From Staphylothermus hellenicus DSM 12710 (GTDB lineage: Archaea; Thermoproteota; Thermoprotei_A; Sulfolobales; Desulfurococcaceae), in contig NC_014205.1 of assembly GCF_000092465.1 (NCBI RefSeq), forward strand, positions 150,001 to 182,000: 32,000 bases of DNA. The letters are read 5' to 3'. The notes beneath the pieces were generated by a model that saw nothing but the letters and a program-made list of their open reading frames with translations, did no database searches and was not told where the DNA came from. Made by a program: the position numbers and the translations under genes. Numbering within the stretch: the first letter of the stretch is position 1; each line of letters starts with the position of its first letter. Shown in pieces: positions 3,090 to 28,158 of this stretch.

Positions 3090-3095
3090 GGGAAT

Positions 3096-4343: not shown

Positions 4344-4345
4344 TT

Positions 4346-7054: not shown

Positions 7055-7379
7055 CAACAACATCTTTATCGTTTCTTCCACATTTAACCGAAGCAGTTGT
7101 CTACGCTTACAATTACCTCTGCGGTCCTCAACTATGAGATACCTATATTTTACTATCTTGCTTAACCCTGGTGAATATAGAGATATAAGTCCCTGACTCC
7201 CCTTTTTCAGCCGTCATTTTAGGTCCATGCTTCTCCTCATAAATAATCCAGATTTAACAATTGGGAAACAAGATGTTTAAACATGAAAACCGCGATCAAC
7301 CTAGAATCACTACTCATTTAATTGCTTAATAAGTTGTTCAAGATCAGTATTAAGTAAAAAATATGAAAAACAGATAATA

Positions 7380-12208: not shown

Positions 12209-12359
<151 letters not shown>

Positions 12360-12430: not shown

Positions 12431-12506
12431 GGGCCCGTAGCCTAGCCCGGATCAGGGCGCCGGCCTTCGGAGCCGGAGATCCCGGGTTCGAATCCCGGCG
12501 GGCCCG
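12431..12506 (+). tRNA. tRNA-Arg (anticodon UCG)
   Basis: Acceptor stem GGGCCCG/CGGGCCC. Anticodon stem CCGGC/GCCGG with loop CTTCGGA. T-arm CCGGGTTCGAATCCCGG. No encoded CCA. Confidence 0.9.
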
Positions 12507-13059
12507 CTAACTCCATTAGCTTGGTAGAATAGCTCGAAATACTCTGCCATTAGTTCTCGTTCTTGTGAAGCCTTGAAAACTCGCTCCTGATCTCAAAAAT
12601 GAGTATTTATAGTGAGTTCTGATTGGTATGGGAAAATCAATGTTCATCTCCAAACTAGTTAGGCTCAGTATTCTAGGCCTTGTAAAGGATAAGATTGGAT
12701 ACACGAGTACATGTATGGTTTTAGATACTGCAGAGAAGCATGCTAAGTTAGTTCTAAAGGAGAAGCAATTAATGATACTATTAACAGGTATCAATAAAGC
12801 CTGGTTCTAGAAAGGAATAGAGCTTCTAGTAAGAGTGTGAAGGGGGACTCCTGTTGCAGTGGAGGTCATAATACGTGGTCCTGCAAGAATATTCTCTTAA
12901 AGATCTTGGGTGTTGTTGCAAAGATTCTGAGTTATCTCTATAGGTGCAAGGTTATTATCTCCATTAGATTAAGAGAGGTTGGAGCGTTAATTTTAAATAA
13001 GGGTATTAAAATAAAAATAACAAATTTTAATATACACAATAAAGTATCGGTGTTTCCGA

Positions 13060-13773
13060 ATGAAACGTAGATATGTTTCATTAGCTATAATAATCTTGGC
13101 TGTAACTATAGTAGCTGTCGTAAATGGAACAGCATTCATATATAGAACATTGCAGGGGAACGTACAGGTAACAGATATAACAAGCGGCCAGAACGAGGGA
13201 ACCATAGCCCAATATGGTATGGCATGTACAGGGTTCTATGTTAAGGGTGCAGACTCAGGAAACACAATACATTCAGATATATTACCAGATGCCGGCACCA
13301 ATCATGATGTATCAATAACCAGCTCTGGCAGTGAATGGTACGGTGTAAAAGTAGACTGGGGTGACATAGCTTGCCAGTGGGACAACACAACTGATCAACA
13401 AACATACACTCTCTACAAGTCGGCAACAATAAATGTTAAAGTAACCAATGGAGACTGGTACTTCAAAGACTTACTTGGCTTCGGCTACCCAAGCGTTATC
13501 ACCGGCCCAGACACAATATATGTAAGAATAAAGGTAGCCAGCCCCCTAACCAACTCTAATATAGATAGTGCAAAACTAATAATCTATGATGCATCAACCC
13601 AGAGTCAGGCAGGTGTAATATATTTGAGGAGCAATACTCTTAGCAATCCAATCCAGCTATCCCCTGGCGATGGGTTCCAGATAGACCTAGAACTTTCTGC
13701 AACAGGGTCGGTGAGCTCTGACAGCTTCACAGTATTGTTCTATGTATCAAGCAGTAACGAGGCTCCAAGGTAG
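13060..13773 (+). CDS. Secreted protein with N-terminal signal/anchor; candidate TasA/camelysin-like fibre subunit
   Basis: 237 aa. The start MKRRYVSLAIIILAVTIVAVVNGTAFIYRTLQGNVQV is a basic n-region, then a TM helix, then a GTAF-type segment like the TasA N-terminus. The remainder is Ser/Thr/Asn-rich and beta-type. It is the first gene of a cluster containing a SipW-type signal peptidase. Confidence 0.55.
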   Translation: MKRRYVSLAIIILAVTIVAVVNGTAFIYRTLQGNVQVTDITSGQNEGTIAQYGMACTGFYVKGADSGNTIHSDILPDAGTNHDVSITSSGSEWYGVKVDWGDIACQWDNTTDQQTYTLYKSATINVKVTNGDWYFKDLLGFGYPSVITGPDTIYVRIKVASPLTNSNIDSAKLIIYDASTQSQAGVIYLRSNTLSNPIQLSPGDGFQIDLELSATGSVSSDSFTVLFYVSSSNEAPR

Positions 13774-13882
13774 CATCCACATCATGCAGTAAATGTATTG
13801 AAAAATTAAAGTTTTTTACAATACTCAATACTCGTCCCTTATTTATACATAGGCTTTTGTTCATATATTAACTGGTGGGTCT

Positions 13883-15076
13883 TTGATGCCAGGAGTATGG
13901 AGGGTTTTATCGTATGTTGGTGTTATAGTTGTTCTAGCATTGTTTGCTGGGAAGCTGCTGGGTCTGCCGGTAGCTTTGATGATTGTTTATGGTTCCTCTA
14001 TGGAGCCTAGCCTTAAGCCTTTTGATCTGGTTCTCGGTGTTCACCCGGATATTGTCGGGGGTGTTGGGAGGGGTGATGTTGTTGTATGGTGTGATCCAGG
14101 CGATGTATGGAGGACTAGCTGTGTTGTTCACAGGGTTATTGATGTACGTGGGGCTGGTGGAGAAAACATTGTGATTACTAAGGGTGATGCTCTAACATAT
14201 CCTGATCCACCGGTTCGTTTATCTAGGGTGTCCTATGTGGTTGTTGCACATGCCCCCAACCTTGTCACTCTTCTATTGCTTACTTTAATCTATGTGATTG
14301 GTATAATATACCACTCTGTTTACCTTCCCTATATTTCTCATAGACGCCGTCTAATTGTTTATCCGGGAACAATTGCTTTACTCTTGGTGATATACTATGT
14401 AATAACCAATACCATCTACATAGGCTCAGGTATGCTCGACACTTCACCTACGACTATTAGCTTCCCAAGGCTTTATAGGGAAGATTTATCCTTCAATACC
14501 TACTCGGGTCTTGTAAATATATCGCTTAGCTACAACTCTTCTCTCTCCCCTATTAATAGCCCTAAGTGTGGAGTAATTGAACCTATCAATGCAAGCCTCA
14601 TACCTGAAAAATTCACTATAGCTAATGGTAGTGCTAACATAATTATACGTATACCGCCCAATGTTTTCCAGGAGCTCTGGAGAATAGATTCAAAACGTGT
14701 CTCCTCATGGAGTCTTCCATCTCCTCCAGCTAAGGTGTCTACATCCATATTGCTTAGCTGTGTACTCCGTTTTAATGGAGGGATCCTTAAAAGCACTTAT
14801 TCCCTCAAATTTAACTGGATAGAGCCTGTAGCTAAGCCATATGGTGATGACAAGGTAGTTGTAGAGAATCATAACCCTGTCCCGATTAATGCGAGTGTTG
14901 AGGTTTATAGCTACTACCAGGATAAGGTGATCTATAGGGAGAGCATTGTATTGAAGCCTTTCACCAATAATATTATAGATTTGCCTAAGACTGGGGAGGG
15001 GGATGTACTTGTAGTCTATATCCACTATGTCTTCCTAGGACATGTTAGGAGCATAGGGGTGGTTGTGCATGCCTAG
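13883..15076 (+). CDS. Signal peptidase I, archaeal/ER type (S26B, SipW/Sec11-like) with a long C-terminal extension
   Basis: An N-terminal TM helix is followed by VYGSSMEPSLKPFDLVLG (Ser box), GDVVVW, VVHRVIDV (His box) and ITKGDA. About 250 further residues include extra TM helices and a beta-rich domain. The ATG at 13886 is probably the start. Confidence 0.75.
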   Translation: MMPGVWRVLSYVGVIVVLALFAGKLLGLPVALMIVYGSSMEPSLKPFDLVLGVHPDIVGGVGRGDVVVWCDPGDVWRTSCVVHRVIDVRGAGGENIVITKGDALTYPDPPVRLSRVSYVVVAHAPNLVTLLLLTLIYVIGIIYHSVYLPYISHRRRLIVYPGTIALLLVIYYVITNTIYIGSGMLDTSPTTISFPRLYREDLSFNTYSGLVNISLSYNSSLSPINSPKCGVIEPINASLIPEKFTIANGSANIIIRIPPNVFQELWRIDSKRVSSWSLPSPPAKVSTSILLSCVLRFNGGILKSTYSLKFNWIEPVAKPYGDDKVVVENHNPVPINASVEVYSYYQDKVIYRESIVLKPFTNNIIDLPKTGEGDVLVVYIHYVFLGHVRSIGVVVHA

Positions 15077-15761
15077 TAGGAGGGAGAACTCTATTATACA
15101 AGTCTATGAGCAAGTAGCTATGGAGGCAACTCGATACTATTGGCTTGGATCCCTGGCAAGAATAGGGCTTGCCTCATCATCCATAGTTGTCTTAGCCGCC
15201 TCAACCCTTATCCTCTGGATAACCTTAAACCCACTATACGTGTTTAAGGATCCTCTCATAAATGGTGAGGTAGGCTTCGTATACTATAGCCTATATAGCT
15301 TTGGAAAGCCTCTCCAAATCCCAGTACTAGATTCACTCACCAAGCTCTCCTTCATCTTAATCTTCAGCTCCACACTATCATCTGCCTTAGTTGCTCCAGC
15401 ACTTGTAACTGTTCTTGTAAAGCCGAAGATGCCACGTATCTACTTAGAGGTTGCTGCAGCTGGTAACGCTATAGGAGGGCTGAATACCTCGTTACTAATA
15501 TCATTCCTACGAGTCCTATACATGAACATAATATCTTCCATACCCATTACAGCTTCCATACACACTCAATACGGCGTTTTCATATTCTACAGGTCGACTA
15601 GCTGGTACACTGAGGTAGGATTATTGAGCCTACGCCTATGGCCCATATACCCTGTACTAGCAGGTGTACTCATAGGATCTGCTGGAGCAACAATATATTA
15701 CATAACCAGATACTATGAGGAAATACTTGAACTACCACCTATTCCAGTAAACCCAACATAA
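15063..15761 (+). CDS. Polytopic membrane protein of the signal-peptidase cluster
   Basis: 232-aa ORF overlapping the upstream gene by 14 nt, with several hydrophobic helices. After the first TM it carries PLINGEVGF, which resembles the post-TM motif of both flanking secreted proteins. Confidence 0.6.
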   Translation: MCMPSRRENSIIQVYEQVAMEATRYYWLGSLARIGLASSSIVVLAASTLILWITLNPLYVFKDPLINGEVGFVYYSLYSFGKPLQIPVLDSLTKLSFILIFSSTLSSALVAPALVTVLVKPKMPRIYLEVAAAGNAIGGLNTSLLISFLRVLYMNIISSIPITASIHTQYGVFIFYRSTSWYTEVGLLSLRLWPIYPVLAGVLIGSAGATIYYITRYYEEILELPPIPVNPT

Positions 15762-15790
15762 CACAAACAAAAAATGGGGTGAGCTAGAAT

Positions 15791-17329
15791 ATGACTAGAA
15801 TAAATAGGATAACGAGGAGTCTAGCAGCTGTAGCAGCTGTAGCAATTATACTATCAGCCATAGTAGCCTACCAAACAGTATTTACTGGCAGAAGCCTTAA
15901 TGGAGAAGTAGAGGTTCAACCAGAATCTATCATATGGTACGAGGACCCAGGAACACCAAACGTAGACGTATCTATAGAGAACGGGTTGAAAGCAAACATA
16001 ACAATAACCACCCATCCCCCAGACATAGTTTTGAAGGAGAGACATGCAATATACAACAATACATTCGACCAATATCCGTCAGAACTCAACGCATCTCCAG
16101 GCTGTAGCAATGTATGGGGATGGGACTCCACAGGACATTACATCTATTATCCCATCTCTGGGGAGGGATGGTATTGTTATATCTACCCTTCAAACATTGA
16201 TATCAGTAGCTACGTGGGTAATGGAAGCAAAGTCTATGTAGCTGCTATAACGTGGCGTAGCGCGTTTTATTATGCGGGCGTATTCCGAGTTGGCTACACA
16301 TTTCTAAACGATACTACATGGGATAATTACCTCATAGGCTTGCGTAACGAGCTCTTACAGGGAAGAACAGGGGATAATGCTAATGCTACAGCATATTACT
16401 ACGACTACTTTGTTAATGGAAACTACATAGGCTATTATATATACCTGCTTAACCAGTCGTCTCTCCCAAGTGGTGCATTGGGGTTTGAGTACGGGTACCG
16501 CCACAACTTGAGTGCTGGCATGGATTTCTCTACATGGAATGCCGGGCTTTGGGGCAAGGGTCTTACAATTAATAGCTCGGATACCCTTCAGGTTCTTGAG
16601 GCCCATATAAATGAGACGTATAGGATTATGCCTAATAGGGTTGGGGTTGGTGTGCATGTAGAGAACTTAGAGGGGACGCAGAATAGTGAGAAAGTTTACT
16701 TCGATAACTTGGTTATAACGGTTAATGCTCCTCCATGGCTTGTTAATGTATCTGGGCTTCAGCCTGGTTGGCGTGTTGTATTGGAGAACTCTACTGGAGG
16801 AGTTATAGATGATGCTATTGTGGGTAGTGATGGTATTGCTGTGCTTGAGGTTTGGGGCTACTTAATAATTCCTAATGCTACTATCAAAGTATATGATTCC
16901 TCTGGAAACCTCATTGTTAATAAGAGTTTTGACCGTGTGATAGGCGGTGATCTCTACGAGCTTACAGGATTTATGGGTACCATTATCAATATATACTCAA
17001 ATCTAACCACAGGATTCAGGTCTGGACTGGGGCTTGTCTCAACAAACTCTACAGTAAACGATGCCTATGTATACATATACCTCTATAACATGTCTGGATA
17101 CAGGGTTGGCCCAATAGGGATCAGGGATGGAAATATAGCCGTTAATACTACGAACTATATCTGGATGAAACCACCATCTAGCTGGAGCAGTAAATGGGGG
17201 GCCGGCTACGTAGAGCTAGTAGCATATATGCCGGGGGGAACCTATAAACTCAGGTTAAAGCAAGAATTTACTCTCTCACCTGGCATATACATCTATGGTT
17301 ACATAGACATAACTATAAGGTCGTCATAA
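15791..17329 (+). CDS. Large secreted/surface protein with N-terminal signal anchor
   Basis: 512 aa. The start is MTRINRITRSLAAVAAVAIILSAIVAYQTVFTGRSLNGEVEVQ. There are many N-x-S/T sequons, Tyr/Gly/Asn-rich beta-type composition, and a GGTGAG Shine-Dalgarno-like element upstream. Confidence 0.7.
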   Translation: MTRINRITRSLAAVAAVAIILSAIVAYQTVFTGRSLNGEVEVQPESIIWYEDPGTPNVDVSIENGLKANITITTHPPDIVLKERHAIYNNTFDQYPSELNASPGCSNVWGWDSTGHYIYYPISGEGWYCYIYPSNIDISSYVGNGSKVYVAAITWRSAFYYAGVFRVGYTFLNDTTWDNYLIGLRNELLQGRTGDNANATAYYYDYFVNGNYIGYYIYLLNQSSLPSGALGFEYGYRHNLSAGMDFSTWNAGLWGKGLTINSSDTLQVLEAHINETYRIMPNRVGVGVHVENLEGTQNSEKVYFDNLVITVNAPPWLVNVSGLQPGWRVVLENSTGGVIDDAIVGSDGIAVLEVWGYLIIPNATIKVYDSSGNLIVNKSFDRVIGGDLYELTGFMGTIINIYSNLTTGFRSGLGLVSTNSTVNDAYVYIYLYNMSGYRVGPIGIRDGNIAVNTTNYIWMKPPSSWSSKWGAGYVELVAYMPGGTYKLRLKQEFTLSPGIYIYGYIDITIRSS

Positions 17330-17627
17330 CTATTCATATTCGCTCTCTTACTTACAGCTTCATACACTACGTTTAGAAAAATAATTGTAGACCTCATAGG
17401 ATGGATAAAAGCATGATATAGGTGAGAACGCTTAGCTGTAGAAACAAAAACACATAACCACATCTCGATAATTAAGGAGAGCCTTATCATTAACCCTAGG
17501 CTAAGGCGGGAGAATAAAAGCCTATACCTCCCTATATAGCATATTTTCTAAGCCCTAATGCTAAACATAGTATTCTCTGGTGGATAAGGGATGGAATGGG
17601 CTTAGAAAATATTCAAATTACTTGCTA

Positions 17628-17652
17628 CTTTCAATTCTTTCTATGTTGTTAC
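17628..17652 (-). CRISPR. Orphan single CRISPR repeat (GTAACAACATAGAAAGAATTGAAAG on the minus strand)
   Basis: It is identical to the second repeat of the array at 21112-21136. It ends in ATTGAAAG, the crenarchaeal crRNA 5'-handle sequence. A leader-like sequence immediately precedes it on the minus strand. No further repeat is seen leftward. Confidence 0.7.
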
Positions 17653-17810
17653 TTTGGTTCGAATAAATTGCTACATTTTATTTTTTCTTCGAATCAGATA
17701 TATATGTTTTTCCATAATTGATCCATGCTTGATCCTGTTCGAACAATTATCTATAGACTTAATAGTATCTCTGACCCCCTTGAAGGGTTTGTGAAAAATA
17801 TTCGATTAGG
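17653..17810 (-). promoter_or_regulatory. CRISPR leader (left copy, minus-strand orientation)
   Basis: About 150 nt align by eye at roughly 80 percent identity to the reverse complement of 20885-21045. It abuts the orphan repeat, is AT-rich, and contains three TTCGAA palindromes. Confidence 0.6.
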
Positions 17811-18337
17811 CTACGTGGTTGTTTGTGTGTTGTTTTGGTAGGGAGACTGCTCGGCTATATATTTGCTACAAGGATAATTAATGATCATAGACTGGATGGA
17901 TTCCAGAAAGTATTAAAAAGCAATCATATCGGGTAAAAATAATTACGGAGTCATATAAATGAAACAAGAATAATTTCTCAACCCTCCTCCGATCAGGCTC
18001 TTCTAGAAAAGTTGTCTATATAGAAGCATTAATGACTCTCATGATCCTCTCTCACAGAGGATTTTGCAAACCCCTTTGGAGTATTTATTGATAACTTATC
18101 GGGTTCCCATATAATTTTCTCCATATTTTTTCGTGCTTTGAGCCCTCTAATCTTCTCCTCAGCAGATCCTTGAAGCTCTTATGGCCAATTAATTCTATCC
18201 TTGATATACTTGAAAGATGATGTAAAAATTGTTTCAAAGGGTTAAGACACTTAGATTTCTGGGATACTCTGTTTTTATATGTTAAAGTTTATTATCTTTT
18301 GTAGGGGCAGATCTATATTTGGAGGGTGTAGGAGGTT

Positions 18338-19246
18338 TTGTCTATTATTATTGATTCTGATAGGGGTAGGAGGGTAGCGGAGATCCTATATAATGCTTAT
18401 TATACCACTGGTATTTTCGGGTATAGATCTCCTCCAGAATCTGTTTTGCCTAAGGGTATGGTGAGGGGCTCGCTTCAACATGTTTTGTTTGTTACATTAA
18501 CGGTTTCCATTGATTATATGAGGGATGCTCAAGCATTATGGGAGAGTGCTAGGAGGACTTTCGAGGATCCTATGACTAGGTATTTATTTGATCCCAAGGC
18601 ACTATATGAAACACCCATAAATAAGATTATGAGGGATATGTTGAAATATGGTTTAGCTAAGAGGCCTAGGAAGGACTCATATATTTGGAAAACAGTTGGT
18701 GCAACTTTTTATAAGAAGTGGGGAGGGGATCCACGCAGTTTTCTTAGAAGCTGTGGATGGGATGCACCAACTATTCTTAAACGGTTAAAAAGTGATACCC
18801 ACCTAGATAGGGGTCGTCTGGTTCCTGATTATCCCTATCTTAGAGGGGATAAGATTGGTCCATTATGGTTGAGAATGCTCTGGGATATTGTTGGTGTTAA
18901 GGATTTGAGGAATTTGGATAAAGTCCCTATTCCCGTAGATGTACATGTTGCTAGAGCAACGCTTGCAACAGGTGTTGTTAGGGGGAGGTTTAGTGGGAGG
19001 CTTGAGGATTTATTCGAATATATTAGGAGGGCTTGGTTCCTAAGCGTTAAGGGGTTAAAGGCTGGGGATAGATCCATGATCGCATTGGATCTGGATGAGC
19101 CCCTGTGGCACTTATCCAAATATGGGTGTTCTAGGAGAGATAAGGATACAGGTTATTGTCCGCTACAAAGTTTTTGTGTTGTTAGAGAATATTGTGTTAA
19201 GGGGAGGATCTGGATAAATAATGGATATGTGGTGATGGATACATGA
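18338..19246 (+). CDS. HhH-GPD-superfamily-like (endonuclease III-like) protein with a C-terminal 4-Cys cluster; putative DNA glycosylase
   Basis: 302 aa with a TTG start after GGAGG. YLRGDKIGPLWLRMLWDIVGV is a hairpin-helix-like segment, and VPIPVDVHVARATLATGVVRG is an EndoIII-style DxHVxR block. The C-terminus LWHLSKYGCSRRDKDTGYCPLQSFCVVREYC resembles an Fe-S cluster loop with unusual Cys spacing. By eye only. Confidence 0.5.
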   Translation: MSIIIDSDRGRRVAEILYNAYYTTGIFGYRSPPESVLPKGMVRGSLQHVLFVTLTVSIDYMRDAQALWESARRTFEDPMTRYLFDPKALYETPINKIMRDMLKYGLAKRPRKDSYIWKTVGATFYKKWGGDPRSFLRSCGWDAPTILKRLKSDTHLDRGRLVPDYPYLRGDKIGPLWLRMLWDIVGVKDLRNLDKVPIPVDVHVARATLATGVVRGRFSGRLEDLFEYIRRAWFLSVKGLKAGDRSMIALDLDEPLWHLSKYGCSRRDKDTGYCPLQSFCVVREYCVKGRIWINNGYVVMDT

Positions 19247-19698
19247 AAACACTATGTATTGTTCCTTGTGGGAAGAGGAAGATTTGGGATAAATACCCAA
19301 ACAAGGGCCCTACTAAGGCAAGATACGTATACATAGGAGCTTTCGCGAAGAAGTGTAGGGAATACGCTGAGAAATTCTGTCCAAACTCCTGGGTTATCTT
19401 ATCGGCGAAGCATGGATTCTTGTTCCCAGACGATATAGTTCCTGGACCATACAATGTCAGCTTCAACGATAAAAAGACAAACCCTATATCCATAGAAGAG
19501 CTCAAAGCACAAGCACATATGAAGGGGCTTTACAGATATGATCGAATAATAGTCTTAGCCGGGAGAAACTATGCAGAAATAGTCAAAAAAGTCTTCTCAA
19601 ATAAAGAAGTTGTTACTCCACTAAGCAAATATAAGGGATTAGGCTATATGATGCAAAAACTAAATGAAGCAATAAGGAGAGGAGTACCGCTCCACTAA
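19243..19698 (+). CDS. YaaA/DUF6884-like small protein
   Basis: 151 aa. Its ATG overlaps the upstream stop (ATGA, 19243-19246). It has an N-terminal CIVPCGKRK and WVILSAKHGFLFPDDIVPGPYNVSF, matching my recollection of the DUF6884 pattern (C-S/G-x-x-K ... ILSAKYGL..P...I.PYD). Confidence 0.5.
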   Translation: MKTLCIVPCGKRKIWDKYPNKGPTKARYVYIGAFAKKCREYAEKFCPNSWVILSAKHGFLFPDDIVPGPYNVSFNDKKTNPISIEELKAQAHMKGLYRYDRIIVLAGRNYAEIVKKVFSNKEVVTPLSKYKGLGYMMQKLNEAIRRGVPLH

Positions 19699-19817
19699 AA
19701 CACATTAGATCCAGCTGTATCATCATATACTTAAGTTGATAAAAATATATTACTTGGTCAAAGCACGGGAAACAAATATATCCCCTAAAACCTCTATATT
19801 ATACATGGTTAGATTTT

Positions 19818-20753
19818 TTGTTAAACCATTATTTTTGTATTAGGTGGTTAGTGTTGAATAAGATTTTAGTTTTCGGGATCATTTTTCTCCTAGTCTATGC
19901 TGAGGCTTCAGTATTTACTCCAATAAACAGTATGGTTACTGGTACGGATGTTTCGGGGGCTGGGAGGCCGAAGATATTGTTCATCTATTATTATTGGCTT
20001 CCAAACTATGGTCCAGCATATTGGTTTATACGTAATTTGTCAATGTATGGTGATGTAGTTTTTATCCGGGCAGATGCTCTAGCTAATCAATCGGATCAGT
20101 ATATTATGGATTATTTGAGACAATTCGACATATACGCTACCATTAATGCTGGTTATGGTCCCTGGCTTTGTCTGGTTGATTTTTGGAGTAAGTATCCGAG
20201 ACTAGTCAATATTATTAGGTTATTAGTTAGAGAGGAGGGGAAGAGTATTCTCGTCGTTGTAGCATCAACAAGTAATAGCCACCCAATCTCCGACATGGTT
20301 TATGCTGAATGTCTTGATACCCCGGATTATTGGATCAACTATGAGATCGCATCATCAAACATAACAGTGGGAATCAATAATATAACTGGTAGATCACTCC
20401 ACATACATCTCTACGGTGGAAAACCACTCATTATACTACCCAATAAACATGATTGGCTAAGTCGAAGAGCAGCATTAGCAGTATACGGATACTATGGGAA
20501 AGGAAAATACGCCGTATTAAGCATAGATCTATTCCAATCAAGCAACCACATAAGAGGAGACATTGAAAAACTATTATCAAACATAATACAATGGCTCACA
20601 AACAAGGAAACCCGAGAAAACAAAACAATCATAAACCCACCAATAGAAAACCTAACAATAACATCAACAATCCTCATAACACCACTAATAATCACCCTAA
20701 TAGGAGCATACATAATCAAACAACACAGAACAAACCCACATAAACAACCCTAA
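19818..20753 (+). CDS. Extracellular protein with signal peptide and C-terminal TM anchor, unknown function
   Basis: The likely start is the GTG at 19851, after AGGTGG (VLNKILVFGIIFLLVYAEA). The C-terminus ITSTILITPLIITLIGAYII followed by KQHR is a membrane anchor. Confidence 0.6.
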   Translation: MLNHYFCIRWLVLNKILVFGIIFLLVYAEASVFTPINSMVTGTDVSGAGRPKILFIYYYWLPNYGPAYWFIRNLSMYGDVVFIRADALANQSDQYIMDYLRQFDIYATINAGYGPWLCLVDFWSKYPRLVNIIRLLVREEGKSILVVVASTSNSHPISDMVYAECLDTPDYWINYEIASSNITVGINNITGRSLHIHLYGGKPLIILPNKHDWLSRRAALAVYGYYGKGKYAVLSIDLFQSSNHIRGDIEKLLSNIIQWLTNKETRENKTIINPPIENLTITSTILITPLIITLIGAYIIKQHRTNPHKQP

Positions 20754-20884
20754 AACACAACACAAACAAAACATTATCGACTCCTAAAACCATTAGAAGC
20801 CCAGCCACCTTATGGTCATCAATATATAGTTAAATAGCTAAGCAGTTTCCACACCAGAACAATACTCTAAACCCTATAGAAAAC

Positions 20885-21045
20885 TAGTCGAACAATTTAC
20901 ATTATACAAACCCGTCAAGGGGTCAAAGACACTATTTATCTTATAGTGAGCTGTTCGAACACGATCAAGCAAGGGATCAATTATAGAAAAGCATATATAT
21001 CGGGTTCGAAGAAAAATATAAATGTAACAATATATTCGAGGCAAT
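20885..21045 (+). promoter_or_regulatory. CRISPR leader (right copy, plus-strand orientation)
   Basis: Homologous to the reverse complement of 17653-17810. It directly precedes the first repeat at 21046 and contains TTCGAA at three positions plus variants. Confidence 0.6.
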
Positions 21046-21136
21046 GTAACAACCTAAAAAGAATTGAAAGCCTCTAAATCCATAAGCTTCCTGCAGCGAA
21101 CCTCCTCTTCAGTAACAACATAGAAAGAATTGAAAG
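21046..21136 (+). CRISPR. Vestigial CRISPR array: 2 repeats (25 nt) and 1 spacer (41 nt)
   Basis: Repeat 1, 21046-21070: GTAACAACCTAAAAAGAATTGAAAG. Spacer, 21071-21111: CCTCTAAATCCATAAGCTTCCTGCAGCGAACCTCCTCTTCA. Repeat 2, 21112-21136: GTAACAACATAGAAAGAATTGAAAG. The two repeats differ at 2 positions. Confidence 0.8.
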
Positions 21137-21258
21137 ATTTGTTTTGTAACCCGAGAATTAGGGTCTTTTCCCTCAAATTACCTAATACAGCCAACTATAT
21201 TGCTATAGTAATTATAATTGCAAATTTCTAATTATTGTATTTCTTGGGTAATATAGTC

Positions 21259-22602
21259 TTAAGCCTGCTTTATTTTTTCAATAATATTTTCTTCGGCTAT
21301 GTTTATGTGTTCATTGATGAGTTGGTCTAGTTCTTTTATTTTATTGATTTTTCTAAAGTTTAACGGTATTATTGCGACGTATTTGTTTTTGTCGTTTATA
21401 GGGATTGGTTTGTGTTGGTTGTTTGTTTTTTGTGTGTAGGTTGCGTTGTAGATTATTGCTCCTTTATCTACGTTGTACTCGTTCATGTATCCTAGTACTA
21501 TTCTTAGTTCTCTATAAATATCTTCTAAACTTCGTCTCTGCTTAGCATCCATAACAAATACTATTTCTTCACCGTCTCCCTTGTTAATTGTTATTGTTAT
21601 ATCTGGTCTACCAGCTTCAGGTCCCCCAATTACTTGTTTGTTTCTAGTAAGCCAGCTTTTATCGCTGAAGCCTTTGCTGTGATAGATCCTATAACTAATA
21701 TTTTCCCCGTTCTCCTCAACATTTATTTCTATAAATTCTCCCTTATGATCAACAATTATTTCCTTCACCCCTATCCGTTCTAGTTTTGATAGTAGAGCGT
21801 ATGTGGTTAGATAATGAGTGTAGATCTCGAATATTCTCTCAAGCTCTACTCCTACAATGGATCCTGTATGCTCAGGTTTTCCATGAACAGCGATCTCTTC
21901 CCCGATATTCATGATTGTTTGGAGATATTGTTTAAAACTTTTAGCGAGGAAATAATATCCATAGTTTCCGCGTTCTAGAACTGTGTCACATAGTTGTAGG
22001 AGTGAATCATAATCTTCTCTCTCAACTATACCTGCTAGTTCGGTTATCCAAGATACGCTACTATATGTTTCTCTTAGATCATCAAGTATTAAACCTATAA
22101 TCTTATTTAATAAATAGTTTTCAGCAGATACATTTTCTTCCAAATCCTCAATTATCTCCTTGATTTCCAAAGCAATATTCGCTAATAACAATGTCTCGGG
22201 TGAATCATATAATCTTTTATTAATACTTGATACTATTAAGAGTCTGCCACTACCGTATAGTGCTATTGTTTTTGGAAAATCTATTCTCCCCCTGGCAACA
22301 ATATCTATTCGATCCTCATAACTGGTTTCATAGATCAACTCTAACGGTATTCTTTTCAGAGTTTCTATAACATCTCTTATAGCTAGAACACGTGCAGTGA
22401 GCAAACCAGCCTTATAAGCATCCCTTAAAACACGGTCCTTTACTTCTCCAAAAAACTTTATAGGGTAACCCTTTACATAGCTGTAGAAGAGAAATAATCC
22501 TATAAGCCTAACAGTAACCATATACATGGATTCTAGGAGATCTTGATCTTTAGAACTTTGAGACAATATTACCGACCATTTCAATAAGTCCTTTATAATC
22601 AT
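21259..22602 (-). CDS. McrC-like PD-(D/E)xK nuclease subunit
   Basis: 447 aa, last gene of the operon and directly after the McrB-like gene. The C-terminal GRPDITITINKGDGEEIVFVMDAKQR fits a PD...(D/E)xK active site in the position seen in McrC. The track start overlaps the upstream gene by 53 nt; the internal Met at about 22527 (MYMVTV) is an alternative. Confidence 0.65.
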   Translation of the reverse strand: MIIKDLLKWSVILSQSSKDQDLLESMYMVTVRLIGLFLFYSYVKGYPIKFFGEVKDRVLRDAYKAGLLTARVLAIRDVIETLKRIPLELIYETSYEDRIDIVARGRIDFPKTIALYGSGRLLIVSSINKRLYDSPETLLLANIALEIKEIIEDLEENVSAENYLLNKIIGLILDDLRETYSSVSWITELAGIVEREDYDSLLQLCDTVLERGNYGYYFLAKSFKQYLQTIMNIGEEIAVHGKPEHTGSIVGVELERIFEIYTHYLTTYALLSKLERIGVKEIIVDHKGEFIEINVEENGENISYRIYHSKGFSDKSWLTRNKQVIGGPEAGRPDITITINKGDGEEIVFVMDAKQRRSLEDIYRELRIVLGYMNEYNVDKGAIIYNATYTQKTNNQHKPIPINDKNKYVAIIPLNFRKINKIKELDQLINEHINIAEENIIEKIKQA

Positions 22603-24268
22603 TTAGTTCTCCTGATTCCATAATCTTCTCTAATGCATCAATGTATTTCTTTGGAAGCATTATCTTAGATATCTCGGGATCAAGAATTGAAGCTAGAGAA
22701 CTAGATAATGCTTCATCAATAACATTCTTGATACTCTTCGAAGGATTCATGCTAATAAGATTATATGCATCAATAGCAGATTCAATTATATAAGATATTC
22801 CTAGAGGGAAGTCATTATTAATAAATATTCTATAGATTCTCGTTAACTCCTCAGCAACATCGCTAAGCCTCTGAGTATCAACATTACTGATCTCTTTAAG
22901 TACGTTGCTAGCTTTTCTCGAGACTATCTTCTTTAAAACTTCTTCATTAGCATTAGAGATTTTCTGCGGGAATACTCTTACAATATGGAATCTTCTAAGT
23001 AATGCATAACCTAGTGTGAACAAATGGGTTATATCCCACGTGTTAATTGTTGCTACTATTCTAAATCCCCAAGGCAACGTATTGTTTGCTTTAACATGTT
23101 TTAGTATTGTCTCAGCAGCATCATCTCTATCATCATAGTTTTTAATCTCATCGATAAGTGACTGGGGCAACTTCCATTGGCTAGGATCTATGCCTGGGTA
23201 TATTGTGAAGAATTCTGCTAAAACCTTATCAGCTTCGCAACGATTCAGTTCATCGATAAGCAATAATACACCTTTAAACCCCTTATTCTCACCAGACTTC
23301 TTATCCTCATCAGCTCTACTAATGTATTCAATATGTTTTGCAAGAGCTGATAGAAATACACCACTCTTCCACTTGAATCCTTTAGAAGAAATAATCGGTC
23401 CACCTATGAAATCATAGCGGGTCCACGTAGAAGAAGCAGTAGTGCTCACCAATTCATAATTGAGATATTTAGCTAGAAGCTCTGCTAAATACGATTTACC
23501 AGTACCCGGCGGCCCAACTAATAATAAGTGCTTACCCTTATTATATCCAGCAACAAGATCATCAAGGATCTCTTCAGAATAAAAACCATCATTATCGATC
23601 ACATGATTTTTGAACCCTTCATAATCAATAAGTATTGGATGCGAAGGTTTTGGCTTATGATATTCTTCTTTCATCCCCATAGAATGTATCTTCATGTACT
23701 CACTCTCCCTAAGGGATGCTAGGTACCAGCCCTGTTTTATGATATTCTCACTAATATTCTTGGTCTCTCCATAATTTATAGGATCTTCATATTCTTGGAA
23801 GTTAGATAACCTTAGTAAAAAGAAAGAAATACCGCTTATATTTCCTATTCTTTTTCTTATTTTTTCTTCTGCCCTTTCTAAATATTGATTTAAATCTATA
23901 TTTTTCTGAGTAGAGCTGTTTTTCTGGAGAAGACGCGTAAGCTCATTTCTGAGTTCATACCAGGTATATTCTTTAATGTTCTTATTATCTTCTTCTCGAA
24001 GAATCGATCTACCTATAAAAGCTTTTTTGACTTCTCCTTTCTTACTGTGAATATATATAGCTCTTGACCCCACATAATGTATGATTGTTAATTCACTGAA
24101 TTGTTTAAGGGATTTTATAATGGCATTATATTCTGCTGCATGACGACCCTTTATCGGCCCCCATAAAGCCACTCCTATATGAGCAGGAATAGGCAAACTC
24201 CAATTGTTTATTTCAACCCAGTATTTTGAAGGTTCTAATCTTTTATAGCTATACAAAATATTTTTCAC
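22550..24268 (-). CDS. McrB-like AAA+ GTPase/ATPase with a divergent N-terminal domain
   Basis: 572 aa. It has Walker A LLLVGPPGTGKSYLAELLA, Walker B plus the McrB-type NR motif VLLLIDELNRCEADKVLAEFF, then FRIVATINTWD and GYALLRRF. The first roughly 200 aa are unrelated to the ATPase core. Confidence 0.8.
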   Translation of the reverse strand: MKNILYSYKRLEPSKYWVEINNWSLPIPAHIGVALWGPIKGRHAAEYNAIIKSLKQFSELTIIHYVGSRAIYIHSKKGEVKKAFIGRSILREEDNKNIKEYTWYELRNELTRLLQKNSSTQKNIDLNQYLERAEEKIRKRIGNISGISFFLLRLSNFQEYEDPINYGETKNISENIIKQGWYLASLRESEYMKIHSMGMKEEYHKPKPSHPILIDYEGFKNHVIDNDGFYSEEILDDLVAGYNKGKHLLLVGPPGTGKSYLAELLAKYLNYELVSTTASSTWTRYDFIGGPIISSKGFKWKSGVFLSALAKHIEYISRADEDKKSGENKGFKGVLLLIDELNRCEADKVLAEFFTIYPGIDPSQWKLPQSLIDEIKNYDDRDDAAETILKHVKANNTLPWGFRIVATINTWDITHLFTLGYALLRRFHIVRVFPQKISNANEEVLKKIVSRKASNVLKEISNVDTQRLSDVAEELTRIYRIFINNDFPLGISYIIESAIDAYNLISMNPSKSIKNVIDEALSSSLASILDPEISKIMLPKKYIDALEKIMESGELNDYKGLIEMVGNIVSKF

Positions 24269-24711
24269 CTCTTATCTATTTCTAAAAGTATTCTTAAAGC
24301 CCTAGCTGGTCTAAGTATTCCCGGATATTTTCTTTCTCTAAATCTCTCAACAATTATTCCCGCCCAATACTTTAGATCTAGATATGTAAGTGTTTTAACC
24401 GCTTCCATTGCTTGGAGTTTTTTCTTATAAGTTCTTAAATTGCTAGTGATAACGGCATAGATTAATACTTTTGCATAAGTTTCCCAATTATCCGTTGTAA
24501 AAGTCATAATTTTTCTGCCGCCTTTCTTTTTGAAACCGCTTCTAAGAGCATATTGTATTAGTAATTGTGGATTACATCTAATTTTTACTTCTAATACTCC
24601 TCTACTCCTAGTTGTGCCAGCGTAGAATCTTGAAATTCCCATGTTGTTTCTAGAATAGATTACTAGGTAATATAGAGGCTTAGCTTCATCATCAATAGTA
24701 GAGCTCATCAC
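24265..24711 (-). CDS. Small operon protein, unknown function (occupies the slot of the small DUF3780-type partner in DUF1156/DUF499 clusters)
   Basis: 148-aa ORF with 4-nt overlaps to both neighbours (24708-24711 and 24265-24268), which implies translational coupling. It is basic, and I cannot place its family from sequence alone. Confidence 0.55.
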   Translation of the reverse strand: MMSSTIDDEAKPLYYLVIYSRNNMGISRFYAGTTRSRGVLEVKIRCNPQLLIQYALRSGFKKKGGRKIMTFTTDNWETYAKVLIYAVITSNLRTYKKKLQAMEAVKTLTYLDLKYWAGIIVERFRERKYPGILRPARALRILLEIDKR

Positions 24712-27700
24712 TTCCTCCTCACAATTGTAACTATTATATCGGCGTATCTAATGTATTTGTCAAGTATTCTTTTAAGAGTTGAATTGATAGTTATCTCTTT
24801 TGGAAATTCTGCTTCGAAGCTTCCCTCGACAAATATATTTGAACCCATAGACTCTAGTAGTTCGCTAACTACGTCATAGACTATTGCTGGATCAGCTTGT
24901 TTAAATAAAACATCGCTCACTCCATACTCTCGGCTTTTCACGTGGAGCTCCATTTTATTGACAATGAACACCTTCTCATCCGGTTTACTTAGTAATTCAG
25001 TTAATTTGTTAATGAGCTCCAGTATATCTCTATAATTCTTATTGCTAATTGAGCTCTTAATACTGATTAAAACATCTCCTTCTTCAAGAACCCCTGGTTC
25101 ATGAATATCAATAACACTAGTCTTAGGCTTAACAGTGATTATTTCCTCGTATGAGTTACCATTATCATCGATCGCCCTAATCGTTATCAATGTTTGTTGC
25201 CTGATCCTTGAACCATTTATTTTAATCCACGTCTTAAACGGTACTTGTCCTTCAAGAACTCCATGATCAGTTACTGCATCACTAGACACGGTGATTTTAA
25301 CATTGCCACCATAGTCTCCTAGAGGTTGAGCCTCAATTCTCACATCTACGCTTTCATCAGGTGAGATCTCAATATATGATGGCTCAACTACTAGGTTTAT
25401 CCCTGTTTTCAGAATCTTTTCCTCCTTAACAATGAAGCCGTCTCTAAGAATTATTTCCCAGTCTGGAAACTTTTCGATATCCTTAATTGAATACCTCTTA
25501 TTCCTGTATACAACGTAGTAGTTTAACTTGAGAATACCATTATCTATTCTTGTTCCGTCGTTTTCTTCTATATCGCTTTTGATCTCCTCTAGTATCTCCT
25601 TTAGCGCGTCTCGCCAATGCATTATAATGAAGCTTTCTTGTATTCTTGTTGGTTCTTCTCCTCTGTCCTTATCAGTAAATGATGTAATATCGTTTGGTGA
25701 ATATATGCGTTTAAAGTATCTTCTATTGAACTCGTCTATTAAGGCGATTTCTAGGTTTAATACACCCTCCTTGATGGCATCTTTAATTCTATCTTCTCTT
25801 ACCATAGGTAGTTCGGGCCTTGTCTTAAAGACATTGATAACGTCTCCAACACTGATCTTTCTCCCAGGTTTTATTTCAATTTCAACCTTGCTTAAATAAG
25901 TCTTTAATGATTCAAAATTTAATGATCTAACTATTTTACCAATGCTTGGAGAGCTTAGTGCTGAGACAACTTTTTCACTAATTGATTTATCAGATGATGT
26001 AGCATATGTTTTCTCAACAATTCTTCTAGAATCTTTAACTGCTGGATAATATATTTGATCAAAGAAGTTAAGAATATTTGTTAATAAGATGTTTTCGATC
26101 ATTCTTTTCTGGTACGATGCAATACTTCTCTCAATATCCTTGATCTCCTTGGCATAACCACTATACAGCTCATTTATTCTATCCATAATTATTTCTGCCG
26201 CTCTCAGAAGTGCTTGATACTCGAGAAGGGATTCGAGTTTATCCTTTGTCGAAATAGTTACTGCTACAACGGTATTAGCGTGTGTTCTCTCAATTCCTCT
26301 AAACTTATAGATTAGCTCTTCGATCTCCTTTGGCTTATTATATAGTATAGCAACCAGCTTATAGGAACTGCTATCAGGAACCTCAGCCTCCGACGCGTAT
26401 CTATAAACCGATATATTCTTTGCATCGAATATTTCAGCATATCTAAATCGTTCCATAGAATAGACACTAGCTTCTCGGGCTCTGCCTACTTCGATTAAAC
26501 GTGAAGTCATTAATTTATGTATATTCTCCATAAGCAAGTTCTCGACATGGCTCCTGTTTTCTTCTAAAATCTTTTTAGCTTCTCTTCTAATCCATTCCTT
26601 TATAGATGCAATTCTAGAATACCAGTATCTATCGGTTGATTCATCATAGTGTAGGAAGACAGTATAGTTACTGATCTTGATCTCTGATAATGCATCTACT
26701 ATATCTACCGGCTTATACCTATTAGATTCGAAGAATTTTGGTTCATAAACCATTTGAACGATTTCTTTGCTTGTTGGAAACACTGGTTCTGCTTTAAGAC
26801 TATCATAGGGATAAGTTGATAAGAATATTGTTCTTAGAATTATCTTTATTAGGTTCTTCCTTTCTGATTCTTTAGGGATTTTGTTATCCAGTGCAACTAT
26901 TTCGTCAGCATATATTCTCTGGTAATCACTATAATCTCCCATGAAGAATAGGCCTTCAACACCGAGCTCGACAGGGTCAATATGCCACGGCATAATCAGT
27001 ACTGGATCCTCGTTGCTCCTCAATAGTTTCCTTAACAGTAGCCTAGATATCCTCATTAAGAACCTGGTCCTATTACCAGTAACTCTTTCAGCGATTTCCC
27101 TGAGCACACTGATATAGGAGGGGTGGAAGGGATAGGTCTTTTTAATGTCTTCTCTGAGCTTACTAGTATCTCCAAATACCTCCTTGAACTCGTTATAAGT
27201 ACTTATAAGTTTACGGATCTCATTTTTTGCCTCATCAACTCTGACCTCACTGAAAAGCCTCTTCTTTACAACATTGAAGAGTTCAGTACTCCTAGATATT
27301 GGGGCATATACATTGCCTGCTACACGTAATAGAGCATCCAATAGATCTCTTACAAATTCGCTTATCCTCTTATACCTTGGCTGAGGCTCTATTCCTCCAG
27401 GCTTCTTTTCCGCAGCAATAGTAATTACTAATACATTGTTTGTTGACTCAACTGCTTGCGCTAGTCTATCAAAGAACCTAACTACCTCGCTCACATATCC
27501 CTCCTTATTCTTATACTTTGATGAAAGAATAGAATCTATATAGTCAAGGATCTCGTCTACAAGAATAACAACTTTGCGGCCTTGCAAAAGTTTTTTGAGA
27601 ACACTTTGATCAGGGCATGTCTCGTTTTTATCATCCCTCTCCACAAGCTCGTATCTCTTCAATCTATCTGCTAGATAGCCCCATAAAGTCTTTATTTTAC

Positions 27701-28127: not shown

Positions 28128-28158
28128 GGCTTTTATCCCCCTATCATATATATTTTAT

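What the first reader, a model, noticed from the sequence alone, without database searches (positions are those of the whole stretch)
17628..21136. Two inward-facing CRISPR leaders with vestigial arrays bracket a non-cas cassette where an adaptation module would be expected
Sequences 17653-17810 (minus) and 20885-21045 (plus) are clear homologues, about 80 percent identical by eye over about 150 nt, in inverted orientation. Each runs outward into 25-nt repeats ending in ATTGAAAG. The left side has one repeat (17628-17652). The right side has two repeats and one 41-nt spacer (21046-21136).

In Sulfolobales-type loci this divergent two-array geometry normally encloses the cas1/cas2/cas4/csa1 adaptation cassette. 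Here the 3 kb between the leaders contains no recognisable cas gene. It holds a glycosylase-like gene, a DUF6884-like gene and a membrane-anchored protein, plus about 0.5 kb of ORF-free DNA (17811-18337).

Either the adaptation module was replaced, or this cassette is a new CRISPR-linked module.
Basis: partly seen in the sequence, partly recalled or inferred. Interest (0 to 1): 0.75.

Follow-up and report, generated by a model that had tools for sequence, protein, structure and literature searches.

The report
Twin vestigial CRISPR arrays flanking defence genes
Two nearly empty CRISPR arrays, with their promoter-bearing leaders pointing at each other, sit in a defence-gene island of the archaeon Staphylothermus hellenicus and enclose an unrelated mosaic of genes rather than a lost or new CRISPR module, so the locus is a tidy but fairly ordinary relic.

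Summary
Two arms (17628-17861 minus, 20831-21070 plus) are 83% identical in inverted orientation. Each ends outward in a 25-nt repeat of the known family Rfam CRISPR-DR27. The left arm has one repeat. The right has two repeats and one 41-nt spacer.

The arms look like real leaders. Both carry a TATA-like box about 27 nt from the repeat and TTCGAA motifs at +6, +36 and +86. A second Staphylothermus genome, and the leader of a 65-repeat metagenomic array, show similar features.

The window comes from Staphylothermus hellenicus DSM 12710. The DNA between the leaders is a mosaic, not one cassette:
- decayed vapB/vapC pseudogenes, which account for the "ORF-free" 0.5 kb;
- a horizontally spread operon of an iron-sulfur HhH-GPD glycosylase-like protein plus DUF6884, seen in seven other genomic contexts, one of which carries CRISPR repeats;
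- an unrelated membrane protein gene.

No cas trace was found. In S. marinus most arrays lie far from cas genes, so an adaptation module is not "expected" here. Replacement of such a module cannot be excluded, but nothing supports it. A new CRISPR-linked module is not supported. Interest is low to moderate.

The parts
17628..17652 (-). Solitary CRISPR repeat (left array, no spacer), GTAACAACATAGAAAGAATTGAAAG
   Evidence: Exact match. Rfam CRISPR-DR27, 42 bits, gathering score 35. No further repeat lies outward.
17653..17861 (-). Left leader. TATA-like AAAAAATAAAATG at 17674-17686; TTCGAA at 17658, 17688 and 17738.
   Evidence: 83% identical to the right arm. TTCGAA positions. Sequence read.
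17862..18237 (-). Decayed vapC (PIN-like) and vapB (RHH-like) pseudogenes. It has an internal 135-nt deletion and stop codons.
   Evidence: 78-85% nucleotide identity to the region upstream of the closest homologue, L013. Translations align to L013 RHH/PIN-like frames. L013's product carries a precomputed weak RHH_12 hit. My own Pfam scan of the fragments found nothing.
18338..19246 (+). 302-aa HhH-GPD-fold, iron-sulfur-loop glycosylase-like protein (Shell_0193)
   Evidence: 657 homologues, 60-68% identical across archaea and bacteria. K172, D201 and four Cys are invariant. AlphaFold2 model pLDDT 86. Foldseek top hits are Qng1/DUF2419 at 1.9e-7, then EndoIII and MutY. Identified as S. hellenicus ADI31335.
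19243..19698 (+). 151-aa DUF6884 protein (Shell_0194). Its start overlaps the upstream stop by 4 nt. CxxxK and LSAxxG motifs are present.
   Evidence: Pfam PF21818, 1.5e-16. PADLOC PDC-M57A, 2.4e-17. Motifs as described in PMC11701544. The same 4-nt overlap occurs in L010, L018, L020, L021 and L022.
19854..20753 (+). 299-aa membrane-anchored protein (an alternative TTG start at 19818 gives 311 aa). Small family, unrelated to the operon.
   Evidence: Only itself found in the word-indexed search. 17 distant homologues in the exhaustive search. The relative P0138 lies among housekeeping genes.
20831..21045 (+). Right leader. TATA-like AAAAATATAAATG at 21013-21025; TTCGAA at 20954 and 21005; degenerate TTCGAG at 21035.
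21046..21070 (+). Leader-proximal repeat, variant with 2 substitutions (GTAACAACCTAAAAAGAATTGAAAG)
   Evidence: Rfam score 33.7 bits, just below the gathering score.
21071..21111 (+). Single 41-nt spacer with no identified target
   Evidence: No match in the window, in IMG/VR viral contigs or in phage records.
21112..21136 (+). Second (distal) repeat, identical to the left solitary repeat
   Evidence: (I3, 26 of 26).

Best explanation
This is a pair of old, paralogous CRISPR leader-plus-array units in inverted (leaders-inward) orientation. They have collapsed to the minimum: one repeat on the left, and two repeats with one spacer on the right. They lie in a defence-gene island of Staphylothermus hellenicus.

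The repeats belong to the crenarchaeal ...ATTGAAAG family (Rfam CRISPR-DR27). From established knowledge of type I-A/III systems, transcription would start at the TATA-like box about 27 nt upstream of the first repeat and read outward. If Cas6 and effector complexes are encoded elsewhere in the genome, the right unit could yield one crRNA and the left unit none. This step is inferred, not shown.

The 3 kb between the leaders is not a functional cassette tied to CRISPR. It is an accretion of three independent pieces:
- a dead vapBC toxin-antitoxin pair;
- a horizontally acquired two-gene operon, an HhH-GPD/[4Fe-4S]-loop N-glycosylase-like enzyme translationally coupled to a YaaA-like DUF6884 DNA-binding protein. 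Judging by its neighbourhoods this is probably a base-excision-type defence or DNA-surveillance module;
- an unrelated membrane protein gene.

Spacer loss by repeat-repeat recombination, together with ordinary defence-island gene turnover, explains the anatomy without invoking a lost adaptation module.
For: - Repeat identity and family.
- Long arrays with a sister repeat exist: L016 has about 65 repeats and L017 about 33.
- Arm homology is far above chance.
- Leader features: 5 of the window's 16 TTCGAA sites fall in the roughly 420 nt of leader, at matching offsets in both arms. A second Staphylothermus genome (MAG, L002) has a single repeat followed by leader-like sequence with GTCGAA at the same +6 and +37 offsets. 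The leader of the 65-repeat array L016 has TTTATAAA about 27 nt, and TTCGAA about 52 nt, from its first repeat.
- The source is S. hellenicus, which is reported to have 3 CRISPR arrays and the repeat-binding protein Cbp2 (PMC3236042; PMC3597662).
- S. marinus has 12 arrays, with cas genes near only 3.
- Mosaic interior: the vapBC remnant is homologous to L013. The 302-aa/DUF6884 operon is conserved in unrelated defence islands. The membrane protein family is found elsewhere among housekeeping genes.
- The flanks are defence genes: a McrB-like AAA_5 protein, DUF499 and a DUF1156 methylase.
- Fold of the 302-aa protein.
Against: - I could not read the rest of the S. hellenicus genome. Whether cas genes, or arrays with the same repeat and leader, exist there rests on the literature only.
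- No orthologous locus was available to reconstruct the history. S. marinus synteny ends at tRNA-Leu, window position 7057.
- The leader-proximal repeat is the mutated one and the distal repeat is canonical. That is the reverse of the usual decay pattern.
- The conserved leader motifs suggest the leaders may still be under selection, so 'vestigial' may be too strong.
- The defence role of the glycosylase/DUF6884 pair is inferred from neighbourhood and a PADLOC candidate model only. The 302-aa protein itself hits no PADLOC or Pfam model.
Confidence: 0.68

Rival explanations
1. An ancestral cas1/cas2/cas4/csa1 adaptation cassette lay between the two leaders, as in Sulfolobales paired loci. It was later deleted and replaced by the present genes.
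For: The geometry (two homologous leaders facing inward, arrays reading outward) matches the Sulfolobales paired-locus layout; the comparison rests on my own knowledge, and the geometry itself. vapBC pairs are commonly interspersed among crenarchaeal CRISPR-Cas modules (own knowledge), and a dead vapBC pair is present.
Against: No cas domain was found in any ORF of the 32-kb window. The non-coding DNA between the arms is accounted for by vapBC remnants, leaving only about 110 and 77 nt unexplained. Cas-remote arrays are the norm in S. marinus.
Confidence: 0.15
2. The three genes form a new CRISPR-associated accessory module, functionally coupled to the flanking arrays.
For: The same 302-aa gene lies between a 22-repeat array and solitary or vestigial repeats in a Methanomethylicia MAG, L005/L006.
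Against: Six of the seven other contexts sampled have no CRISPR repeats. Partners there are RM, GmrSD, TIR, PLD, DUF499 and TA genes. The repeats near the gene in L005 have no leader. The third gene is unrelated to the operon. DUF6884 is decayed in L005-L009.
Confidence: 0.04
3. The segment 17628-21136 is a non-autonomous mobile element. Its roughly 235-bp terminal inverted repeats happen to be built from leader plus repeat, and it is mobilised in trans (for example by a Cas1-type integrase or a transposase).
For: Long terminal inverted repeats bound the segment. Public short-read assemblies break at the arms, at L003, L001 and L004. A 9-nt direct repeat, TCAAATTAC, lies at 17613 and 21173 (D1).
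Against: There is no target-site duplication at the actual ends, and the 9-mer lies 6 nt and 36 nt from them. No transposase or casposase is present. No other copy was found in the window or in any fetched locus. The arms are only 83% identical, too diverged for a recent transposition. The interior is a mosaic with pseudogenes.
Confidence: 0.05
4. The leader-plus-single-repeat units are maintained on purpose. They may be naive 'ground-state' acquisition sites, or sources of crRNA-like regulatory RNAs whose guide is the fixed flanking sequence.
For: Leader motifs are conserved between the arms and in another species that also shows leader plus one repeat. Type III crRNAs are 3'-trimmed, so a single repeat can in principle give a guide from its flank (established knowledge).
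Against: The flank sequences have no complementary partner in the window. There are no expression data. The MAG contig ends inside the leader, so its state is uncertain.
Confidence: 0.08

Closest known systems
Sulfolobales paired CRISPR loci (for example the two inverted arrays of S. islandicus REY15A, or S. solfataricus loci C/D) flanking the csa3-cas1-cas2-cas4-csa1 adaptation cassette
   Same: Two arrays in inverted orientation, homologous leaders facing inward, and repeats ending in ATTGAAAG (the 8-nt crRNA handle).
   Different: No cas gene lies between or near the leaders. The arrays are reduced to 1 and 2 repeats. The host is a Desulfurococcales species whose relative keeps most arrays far from cas genes.
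Rfam RF01339 CRISPR-DR27 repeat family
   Same: 25 nt, with 24 of 25 identical to the family consensus. Two copies score above the gathering threshold.
   Different: The leader-proximal right-hand copy has two central substitutions and falls just below threshold (33.7 against 35 bits).
Orphan or mini CRISPR arrays and solitary repeat units described in prokaryotic genomes and mobile elements
   Same: One or two repeats without adjacent cas genes.
   Different: Here each unit keeps a long, motif-bearing leader, the two units form an inverted pair in a chromosome, and no viral or plasmid copy was found.
HhH-GPD base-excision enzymes (Endonuclease III, MutY, AGOG) and the queuine-salvage glycosylase Qng1/DUF2419
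   Same: The predicted fold matches (Foldseek 1.9e-7 to Qng1; 5e-4 to 1e-3 to EndoIII). It has a four-cysteine C-terminal loop like EndoIII and MutY. Invariant Lys and Asp sit in hairpin-like and 'VDxH' contexts.
   Different: No sequence-level match to any solved structure or Pfam model. It forms a fixed 302-aa family, always linked to DUF6884. Its substrate is unknown.
DUF6884 / B. subtilis YfjM / E. coli YaaA; PADLOC candidate system PDC-M57 (component A)
   Same: Pfam and PADLOC matches at 1e-16 to 1e-17, with CxxxK and LSAxxG motifs present.
   Different: The partner here (the 302-aa protein) matches no PADLOC model, so this is not demonstrably the PDC-M57 system. No experimental defence phenotype is known to me.

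Membership tests
CRISPR array | Two or more direct repeats separated by unique spacers of similar length | tested here: inconclusive
   The right unit has 2 repeats and one 41-nt spacer, the minimum. The left unit has a single repeat, so formally it is not an array.
CRISPR array | The repeat belongs to a recognised CRISPR repeat family found in long arrays | tested here: met
   Rfam CRISPR-DR27 at 42 bits. Sister repeats occur in arrays of about 65 and about 33 repeats, L016 and L017.
CRISPR array | A/T-rich leader with a promoter upstream of the first repeat, in the correct polarity | tested here: met
   Sequence features only: a TATA-like box about 27 nt upstream, conserved in both arms, and an analogous layout in the L016 leader. 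Promoter activity was not tested.
CRISPR array | Cognate cas genes in the genome; crRNA produced | not testable with these tools
   No cas genes occur in the 32-kb window. The rest of the genome was not readable. The literature reports 3 arrays and Cbp2 in S. hellenicus.
Sulfolobales-type paired locus with adaptation cassette | Two inverted arrays with homologous inward-facing leaders | tested here: met
Sulfolobales-type paired locus with adaptation cassette | cas1/cas2/cas4/csa1 (or their remnants) between the leaders | tested here: not met
   Pfam, NCBIfam and PADLOC scans of all three ORFs found no cas domain. The non-coding DNA is a vapBC remnant.
HhH-GPD DNA glycosylase superfamily (302-aa protein) | HhH-GPD fold | tested here: met
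   AlphaFold2 model pLDDT 86, pTM 0.83. Foldseek probability 1.00 to Qng1, EndoIII and MutY.
HhH-GPD DNA glycosylase superfamily (302-aa protein) | Catalytic Asp (and Lys for bifunctional enzymes) and a Cys4 [4Fe-4S] loop | tested here: inconclusive
   K172, D201, C264, C274, C280 and C286 are invariant in 23 sequences. Equivalence to the EndoIII or Qng1 catalytic residues is inferred from motif context, not from a residue-level structural alignment.
HhH-GPD DNA glycosylase superfamily (302-aa protein) | Sequence-profile membership (Pfam HhH-GPD or AGOG) | tested here: not met
   No Pfam hit for the window protein. Many homologues carry only precomputed 'weak' AGOG hits. No PDB sequence hit.
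DUF6884 (PF21818) / PADLOC PDC-M57 | Match to the DUF6884 model with CxxxK and LSAxxG motifs | tested here: met
   61.2 bits against a cut-off of 30. CGKRK and LSAKHG are present.
DUF6884 (PF21818) / PADLOC PDC-M57 | Presence of the other PDC-M57 component(s) | tested here: not met
   No neighbouring protein matched a PDC-M57 model at E <= 0.01.
TIR-bounded transposable element, MITE or casposon | Terminal inverted repeats plus target-site duplication, multiple copies, or a transposase/casposase | tested here: not met
   Inverted arms are present. There is no duplication at the ends, no extra copies in the window or fetched loci, and no transposase.

The most novel reading that the evidence does not exclude
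The inverted leader-plus-repeat units may not be relics. They may be maintained 'empty' CRISPR entry sites whose conserved leader motifs (TTCGAA at +6/+36/+86, plus the TATA box) keep them competent for spacer uptake or for making flank-derived guide RNAs. Their recombinogenic repeats may also act as capture points for defence cassettes. The captured operon (an HhH-GPD/Fe-S glycosylase-like enzyme resembling the 7-deazaguanine-nucleotide glycosylase Qng1, plus base-flipping DUF6884) could itself be an uncharacterised base-excision defence system against modified foreign DNA.
Probability: 0.1. Interest if true: 0.7.

Novelty: new member of a known kind. Interest (0 to 1): 0.3.

Why it matters
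The locus shows how far a paired CRISPR locus can shrink while keeping long, motif-bearing leaders. Standard CRISPR finders need at least 2-3 repeats and would miss the left unit altogether.

The shared TTCGAA spacing in the leaders is a concrete candidate binding site for a leader-recognising factor in Desulfurococcales. That could be tested in work on archaeal spacer integration.

Separately, the enclosed glycosylase-like/DUF6884 operon is unusually conserved: 60-68% identity between Crenarchaeota, methanogen-related archaea and bacteria. It consistently sits in defence islands, which makes it a reasonable candidate for experimental testing as a defence or DNA-surveillance system. Neither point overturns current understanding.

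Tried and rejected
- **Exact-repeat scans.** Of species-representative genomes: one hit, a Staphylothermus MAG with a single repeat. Of metagenomes: none. Of IMG/VR: none. My first pattern fixed a T where the DR27 consensus has C, so it could not have found consensus-type arrays. The relaxed metagenome scan found two long sister arrays.
- **Spacer target search.** Nothing in the window, in viral contigs or in phage records.
- **Leader motif scan of viral contigs.** Nothing.
- **Cas pseudogene hunt in 17811-18337.** The region is instead homologous to a vapBC-like region. A direct Pfam scan of the short fragments gave no hits, so the RHH/PIN labels rest on a weak precomputed hit and on my reading of the motifs.
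- **S. marinus comparison.** Synteny ends at tRNA-Leu, so there is no orthologous locus. No att-like direct repeat was found.
- **MAG methylase fragment.** It is not related to a nearby S. marinus MTase.
- **Solitary repeats in the Methanomethylicia contig.** They have no leader homology, so they are not parallel cases.
- **302-aa family in viruses, phages and plasmids.** Absent from viral contigs and phage records. Only remote haloarchaeal plasmid hits, about 24-28% identity.
- **Literature searches.** Searches for the repeat sequence, for PDC-M57 and for Staphylothermus cas genes found nothing useful.
- **S. hellenicus cas loci.** I could not retrieve them.

Full report
**1. The observation**

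The 25-nt sequence GTAACAACATAGAAAGAATTGAAAG occurs three times in the window and nowhere else. It lies at 17628-17652 on the minus strand, at 21112-21136 on the plus strand, and with two central substitutions at 21046-21070 on the plus strand. None of 100 shuffles gave a match. The right-hand copies are separated by a unique 41-nt spacer.

Inward of the repeats, the two sides are homologous in inverted orientation. A local alignment gives 17628-17861 against 20831-21070, with 190 of 229 aligned positions identical (83%). Its score is 204, against 21 +/- 2.7 for shuffled sequence. No degenerate additional repeats lie beyond the outermost ones.

**2. Are these CRISPR repeats and leaders?**

Rfam's CRISPR-DR27 model (RF01339) matches two copies at 42 bits, above the gathering score of 35, and the variant copy at 33.7 bits. 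The family consensus differs from the canonical copy at one position. A relaxed scan of metagenomes returned two contigs made almost entirely of a sister repeat, GTAGCAACTGAGAAAGAATTGAAAG. One carries about 65 copies and the other about 33, with 37-50-nt spacers. The repeat type is therefore used in bona fide arrays.

The polarity is right. The repeats end in ATTGAAAG on the side away from the arms. In crenarchaeal type I-A/III systems this is the 8-nt crRNA 5' handle (established knowledge), so the arms lie upstream, where leaders lie.

Both arms carry an A/T box about 27 nt from the first repeat: AAAAAATAAAATG at 17674-17686 and AAAAATATAAATG at 21013-21025. That is the usual TATA-to-start distance in archaea.

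Five of the window's 16 TTCGAA hexamers fall in the roughly 420 nt of leader, at matching offsets of +6, +36 and +86 from the repeat in both arms. The only other genome hit for the repeat is a Staphylothermus sp. MAG. It shows one repeat followed by much more diverged leader-like sequence that still has GTCGAA at +6 and +37. The leader stub of the 65-repeat array has TTTATAAA about 27 nt, and TTCGAA about 52 nt, from its first repeat. I accept the arms as genuine leaders. Promoter activity is inferred, not shown.

**3. Where the window comes from, and its surroundings**

Exact protein look-ups identify the source as Staphylothermus hellenicus DSM 12710. The 302-aa protein is ADI31335 and the 151-aa protein is ADI31336; the right-flank 447-aa ORF clusters with ADI31338, which is named Shell_0196, so the two cassette genes are numbered Shell_0193 and Shell_0194 by accession order.

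The literature reports three CRISPR arrays in this genome (PMC3236042) and a CRISPR repeat-binding protein, Cbp2 (PMC3597662). The sister species S. marinus has 12 arrays, with cas genes near only three of them (PMC2678158).

Synteny with S. marinus (91% identity) runs from window position 275 to 7057 and stops at a tRNA-Leu gene. The rest of the window, including the finding, has no counterpart at that S. marinus site. No att-like repeat was found.

To the right of the finding lie clear defence genes:
- a McrB-like AAA_5 ATPase with a 447-aa partner;
- a DUF499 ATPase and a DUF1156 methylase, which give HmaC/HmaB-like PADLOC matches.

No cas domain occurs anywhere in the 32 kb.

**4. What lies between the leaders**

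*(a) 17862-18237.* The 'ORF-free' DNA is 78-85% identical to the region upstream of the closest homologue of the 302-aa gene, on metagenomic contig L013. In L013 the minus strand reads as an RHH-type antitoxin followed by a PIN-like N-terminus (MVVDASALV...). In the window the same frames carry a 135-nt deletion and stop codons. I read this as a dead vapBC pair. The family labels rest on a weak precomputed RHH_12 hit and on motif recognition, because my Pfam scan of the fragments was negative.

*(b) 18338-19246.* This gene encodes a 302-aa protein with 657 homologues. The best 120 listed are nearly all about 302 aa and are 59-68% identical, apart from one 83% relative. They come from Methanomethylicia, Methanoliparum, Methanosarcinales, Argoarchaeum and a TA06 bacterium. 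That pattern points to horizontal spread under strong constraint.
- K172, D201 and four C-terminal cysteines are invariant.
- The AlphaFold2 model (pLDDT 86) matches the queuine-salvage glycosylase Qng1/DUF2419 best (1.9e-7), then Endonuclease III and MutY.
- There is no sequence-level match to Pfam or PDB.

*(c) 19243-19698.* This gene overlaps the previous one by 4 nt and encodes a DUF6884 protein (Pfam 1.5e-16; PADLOC PDC-M57A 2.4e-17). It has the CxxxK and LSAxxG motifs described for this YaaA-like, probably base-flipping DNA-binding family (PMC11701544).

The same overlapping gene pair recurs in L010, L018, L020, L021 and L022, and in truncated form at contig ends in L011-L013 and L019. 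DUF6884 is decayed in L005-L009. The neighbours in those contexts are type I/II RM, GmrSD, TIR, PLD, DUF499/HEPN, NucS-EVE and PIN/HicAB genes, which is to say defence islands. The family is absent from IMG/VR and phage records.

*(d) 19854-20753.* This gene encodes a protein with hydrophobic N- and C-termini. It has only 17 distant relatives. The one relative I could place lies among housekeeping genes.

The interior is therefore a mosaic of three unrelated pieces, not a cassette.

**5. Is the operon CRISPR-linked?**

One other context looked suggestive. In a Methanomethylicia MAG the 302-aa gene lies between a 22-repeat array (after cas4-cas1-cas2) and solitary or vestigial repeats. However, those downstream repeats have no leader. 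A sister contig has a DUF1156 methylase/SNF2 helicase operon in place of the cas genes and array. The other six contexts sampled contain no CRISPR repeats. The sample is small, but it points to shared residence in defence islands rather than functional linkage.

**6. Most likely history and working**

The arms are more diverged from each other (83%) than the mostly coding S. hellenicus and S. marinus DNA is (91%). Non-coding DNA evolves faster, so this is only a rough guide. Still, the duplication is probably not recent, and the arms look like old paralogous leaders of a former array pair.

Arrays lose spacers by recombination between repeats (established knowledge). One repeat and two repeats are the end states of that process. 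The inter-leader space has then turned over like the rest of the island.

If S. hellenicus encodes Cas6 and effectors elsewhere, the right unit can still give one crRNA. Its target is unknown. The left unit gives none.

One oddity remains. The leader-proximal right repeat is the mutated one, whereas the distal repeat is identical to the left solitary repeat (26 of 26).

**7. Rivals**

- Replacement of an adaptation cassette cannot be excluded, but no trace supports it.
- A TIR-bounded mobile element is unlikely. There is no target-site duplication at the ends, no enzyme, no extra copies, and the arms are diverged.
- A maintained 'empty array' or flank-guide role is compatible with the conserved leader motifs, but has no direct support.

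**8. Verdict**

The CRISPR-leader reading is supported. The 'missing adaptation module' and 'new CRISPR-linked module' readings are not. This is a new example of a known kind: orphan, collapsed arrays in an archaeal defence island. Two modest leads come out of it: the TTCGAA leader motif, and the uncharacterised glycosylase-like/DUF6884 operon.

Noticed in passing
window 275-7057 versus 7058-32000: Synteny with S. marinus F1 (91% identity) ends exactly at tRNA-Leu (6967-7054). The remaining roughly 25 kb has no counterpart at that S. marinus site, so it may be a genomic island or a rearrangement. No att-like direct repeat was found.
   Followed up: partly
window 21259-31170 (minus strand): A run of defence genes: a 447-aa protein plus a McrB-like AAA_5 ATPase (572 aa), a 148-aa ORF, a DUF499 ATPase (1139 aa, HmaC-like) and a DUF1156 adenine methylase (1003 aa, HmaB/MTase_II-like).
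   Followed up: partly
window 13060-17329 (plus strand): A cluster of a SipW/archaeal signal-peptidase-I-like protein (397 aa) with three hydrophobic or secreted proteins that have no family match (237, 232 and 512 aa). It may be a surface-filament or secreted-protein operon.
   Followed up: no
window 17658, 17688, 17738, 20954, 21005 (and TTCGAG at 21035): TTCGAA palindromes at conserved offsets (+6, +36, +86) from the first repeat in both leaders. The MAG L002 has GTCGAA at +6 and +37. This is a candidate protein-binding motif.
   Followed up: partly
window 17541-17555 / 17598-17612: A perfect 15-bp inverted repeat with a 42-nt loop, lying between the 512-aa gene and the left solitary repeat. 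It may act as a bidirectional terminator (I15).
   Followed up: no
window 17613-17621 and 21173-21181: A 9-nt direct repeat, TCAAATTAC, lies 6 nt outside the left repeat and 36 nt outside the right one. It is probably chance, because the spacing is asymmetric (D1).
   Followed up: partly
Logan contigs L003, L001, L004 (window 17659 / 17727 and 20843-20869): Short-read assemblies of run SRR3925462 break inside the left leader, with 17660-17726 missing from the gene-bearing contigs, and at the inner edge of the right arm. The two arms share no exact 31-mer. The breaks may therefore indicate another near-identical leader copy elsewhere in the genome, or population heterogeneity.
   Followed up: no
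L002 2360-2927 (Staphylothermus sp. MAG JAGHDU010000201): A single DR27-type repeat with leader-like sequence on one side, running to the contig end. On the other side, immediately adjacent, is a truncated 98-aa SAM-methyltransferase-like ORF. This is a second 'leader plus one repeat' state in the genus.
   Followed up: partly
L005 versus L006 (Methanomethylicia contigs): The two contigs are identical from about position 4145 onward. Upstream, one has cas4-cas1-cas2 plus a 22-repeat array abutting a 174-aa helicase C-terminal fragment. The other has an intact DUF1156 methylase-DUF8076-SNF2 helicase operon. This looks like a CRISPR module swapped in at an array end.
   Followed up: partly
window 12209-12356: Rfam reports a tRNA spanning 148 nt, probably intron-containing, which ARAGORN in bacterial mode does not report. 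It lies next to tRNA-Arg at 12431-12507.
   Followed up: no
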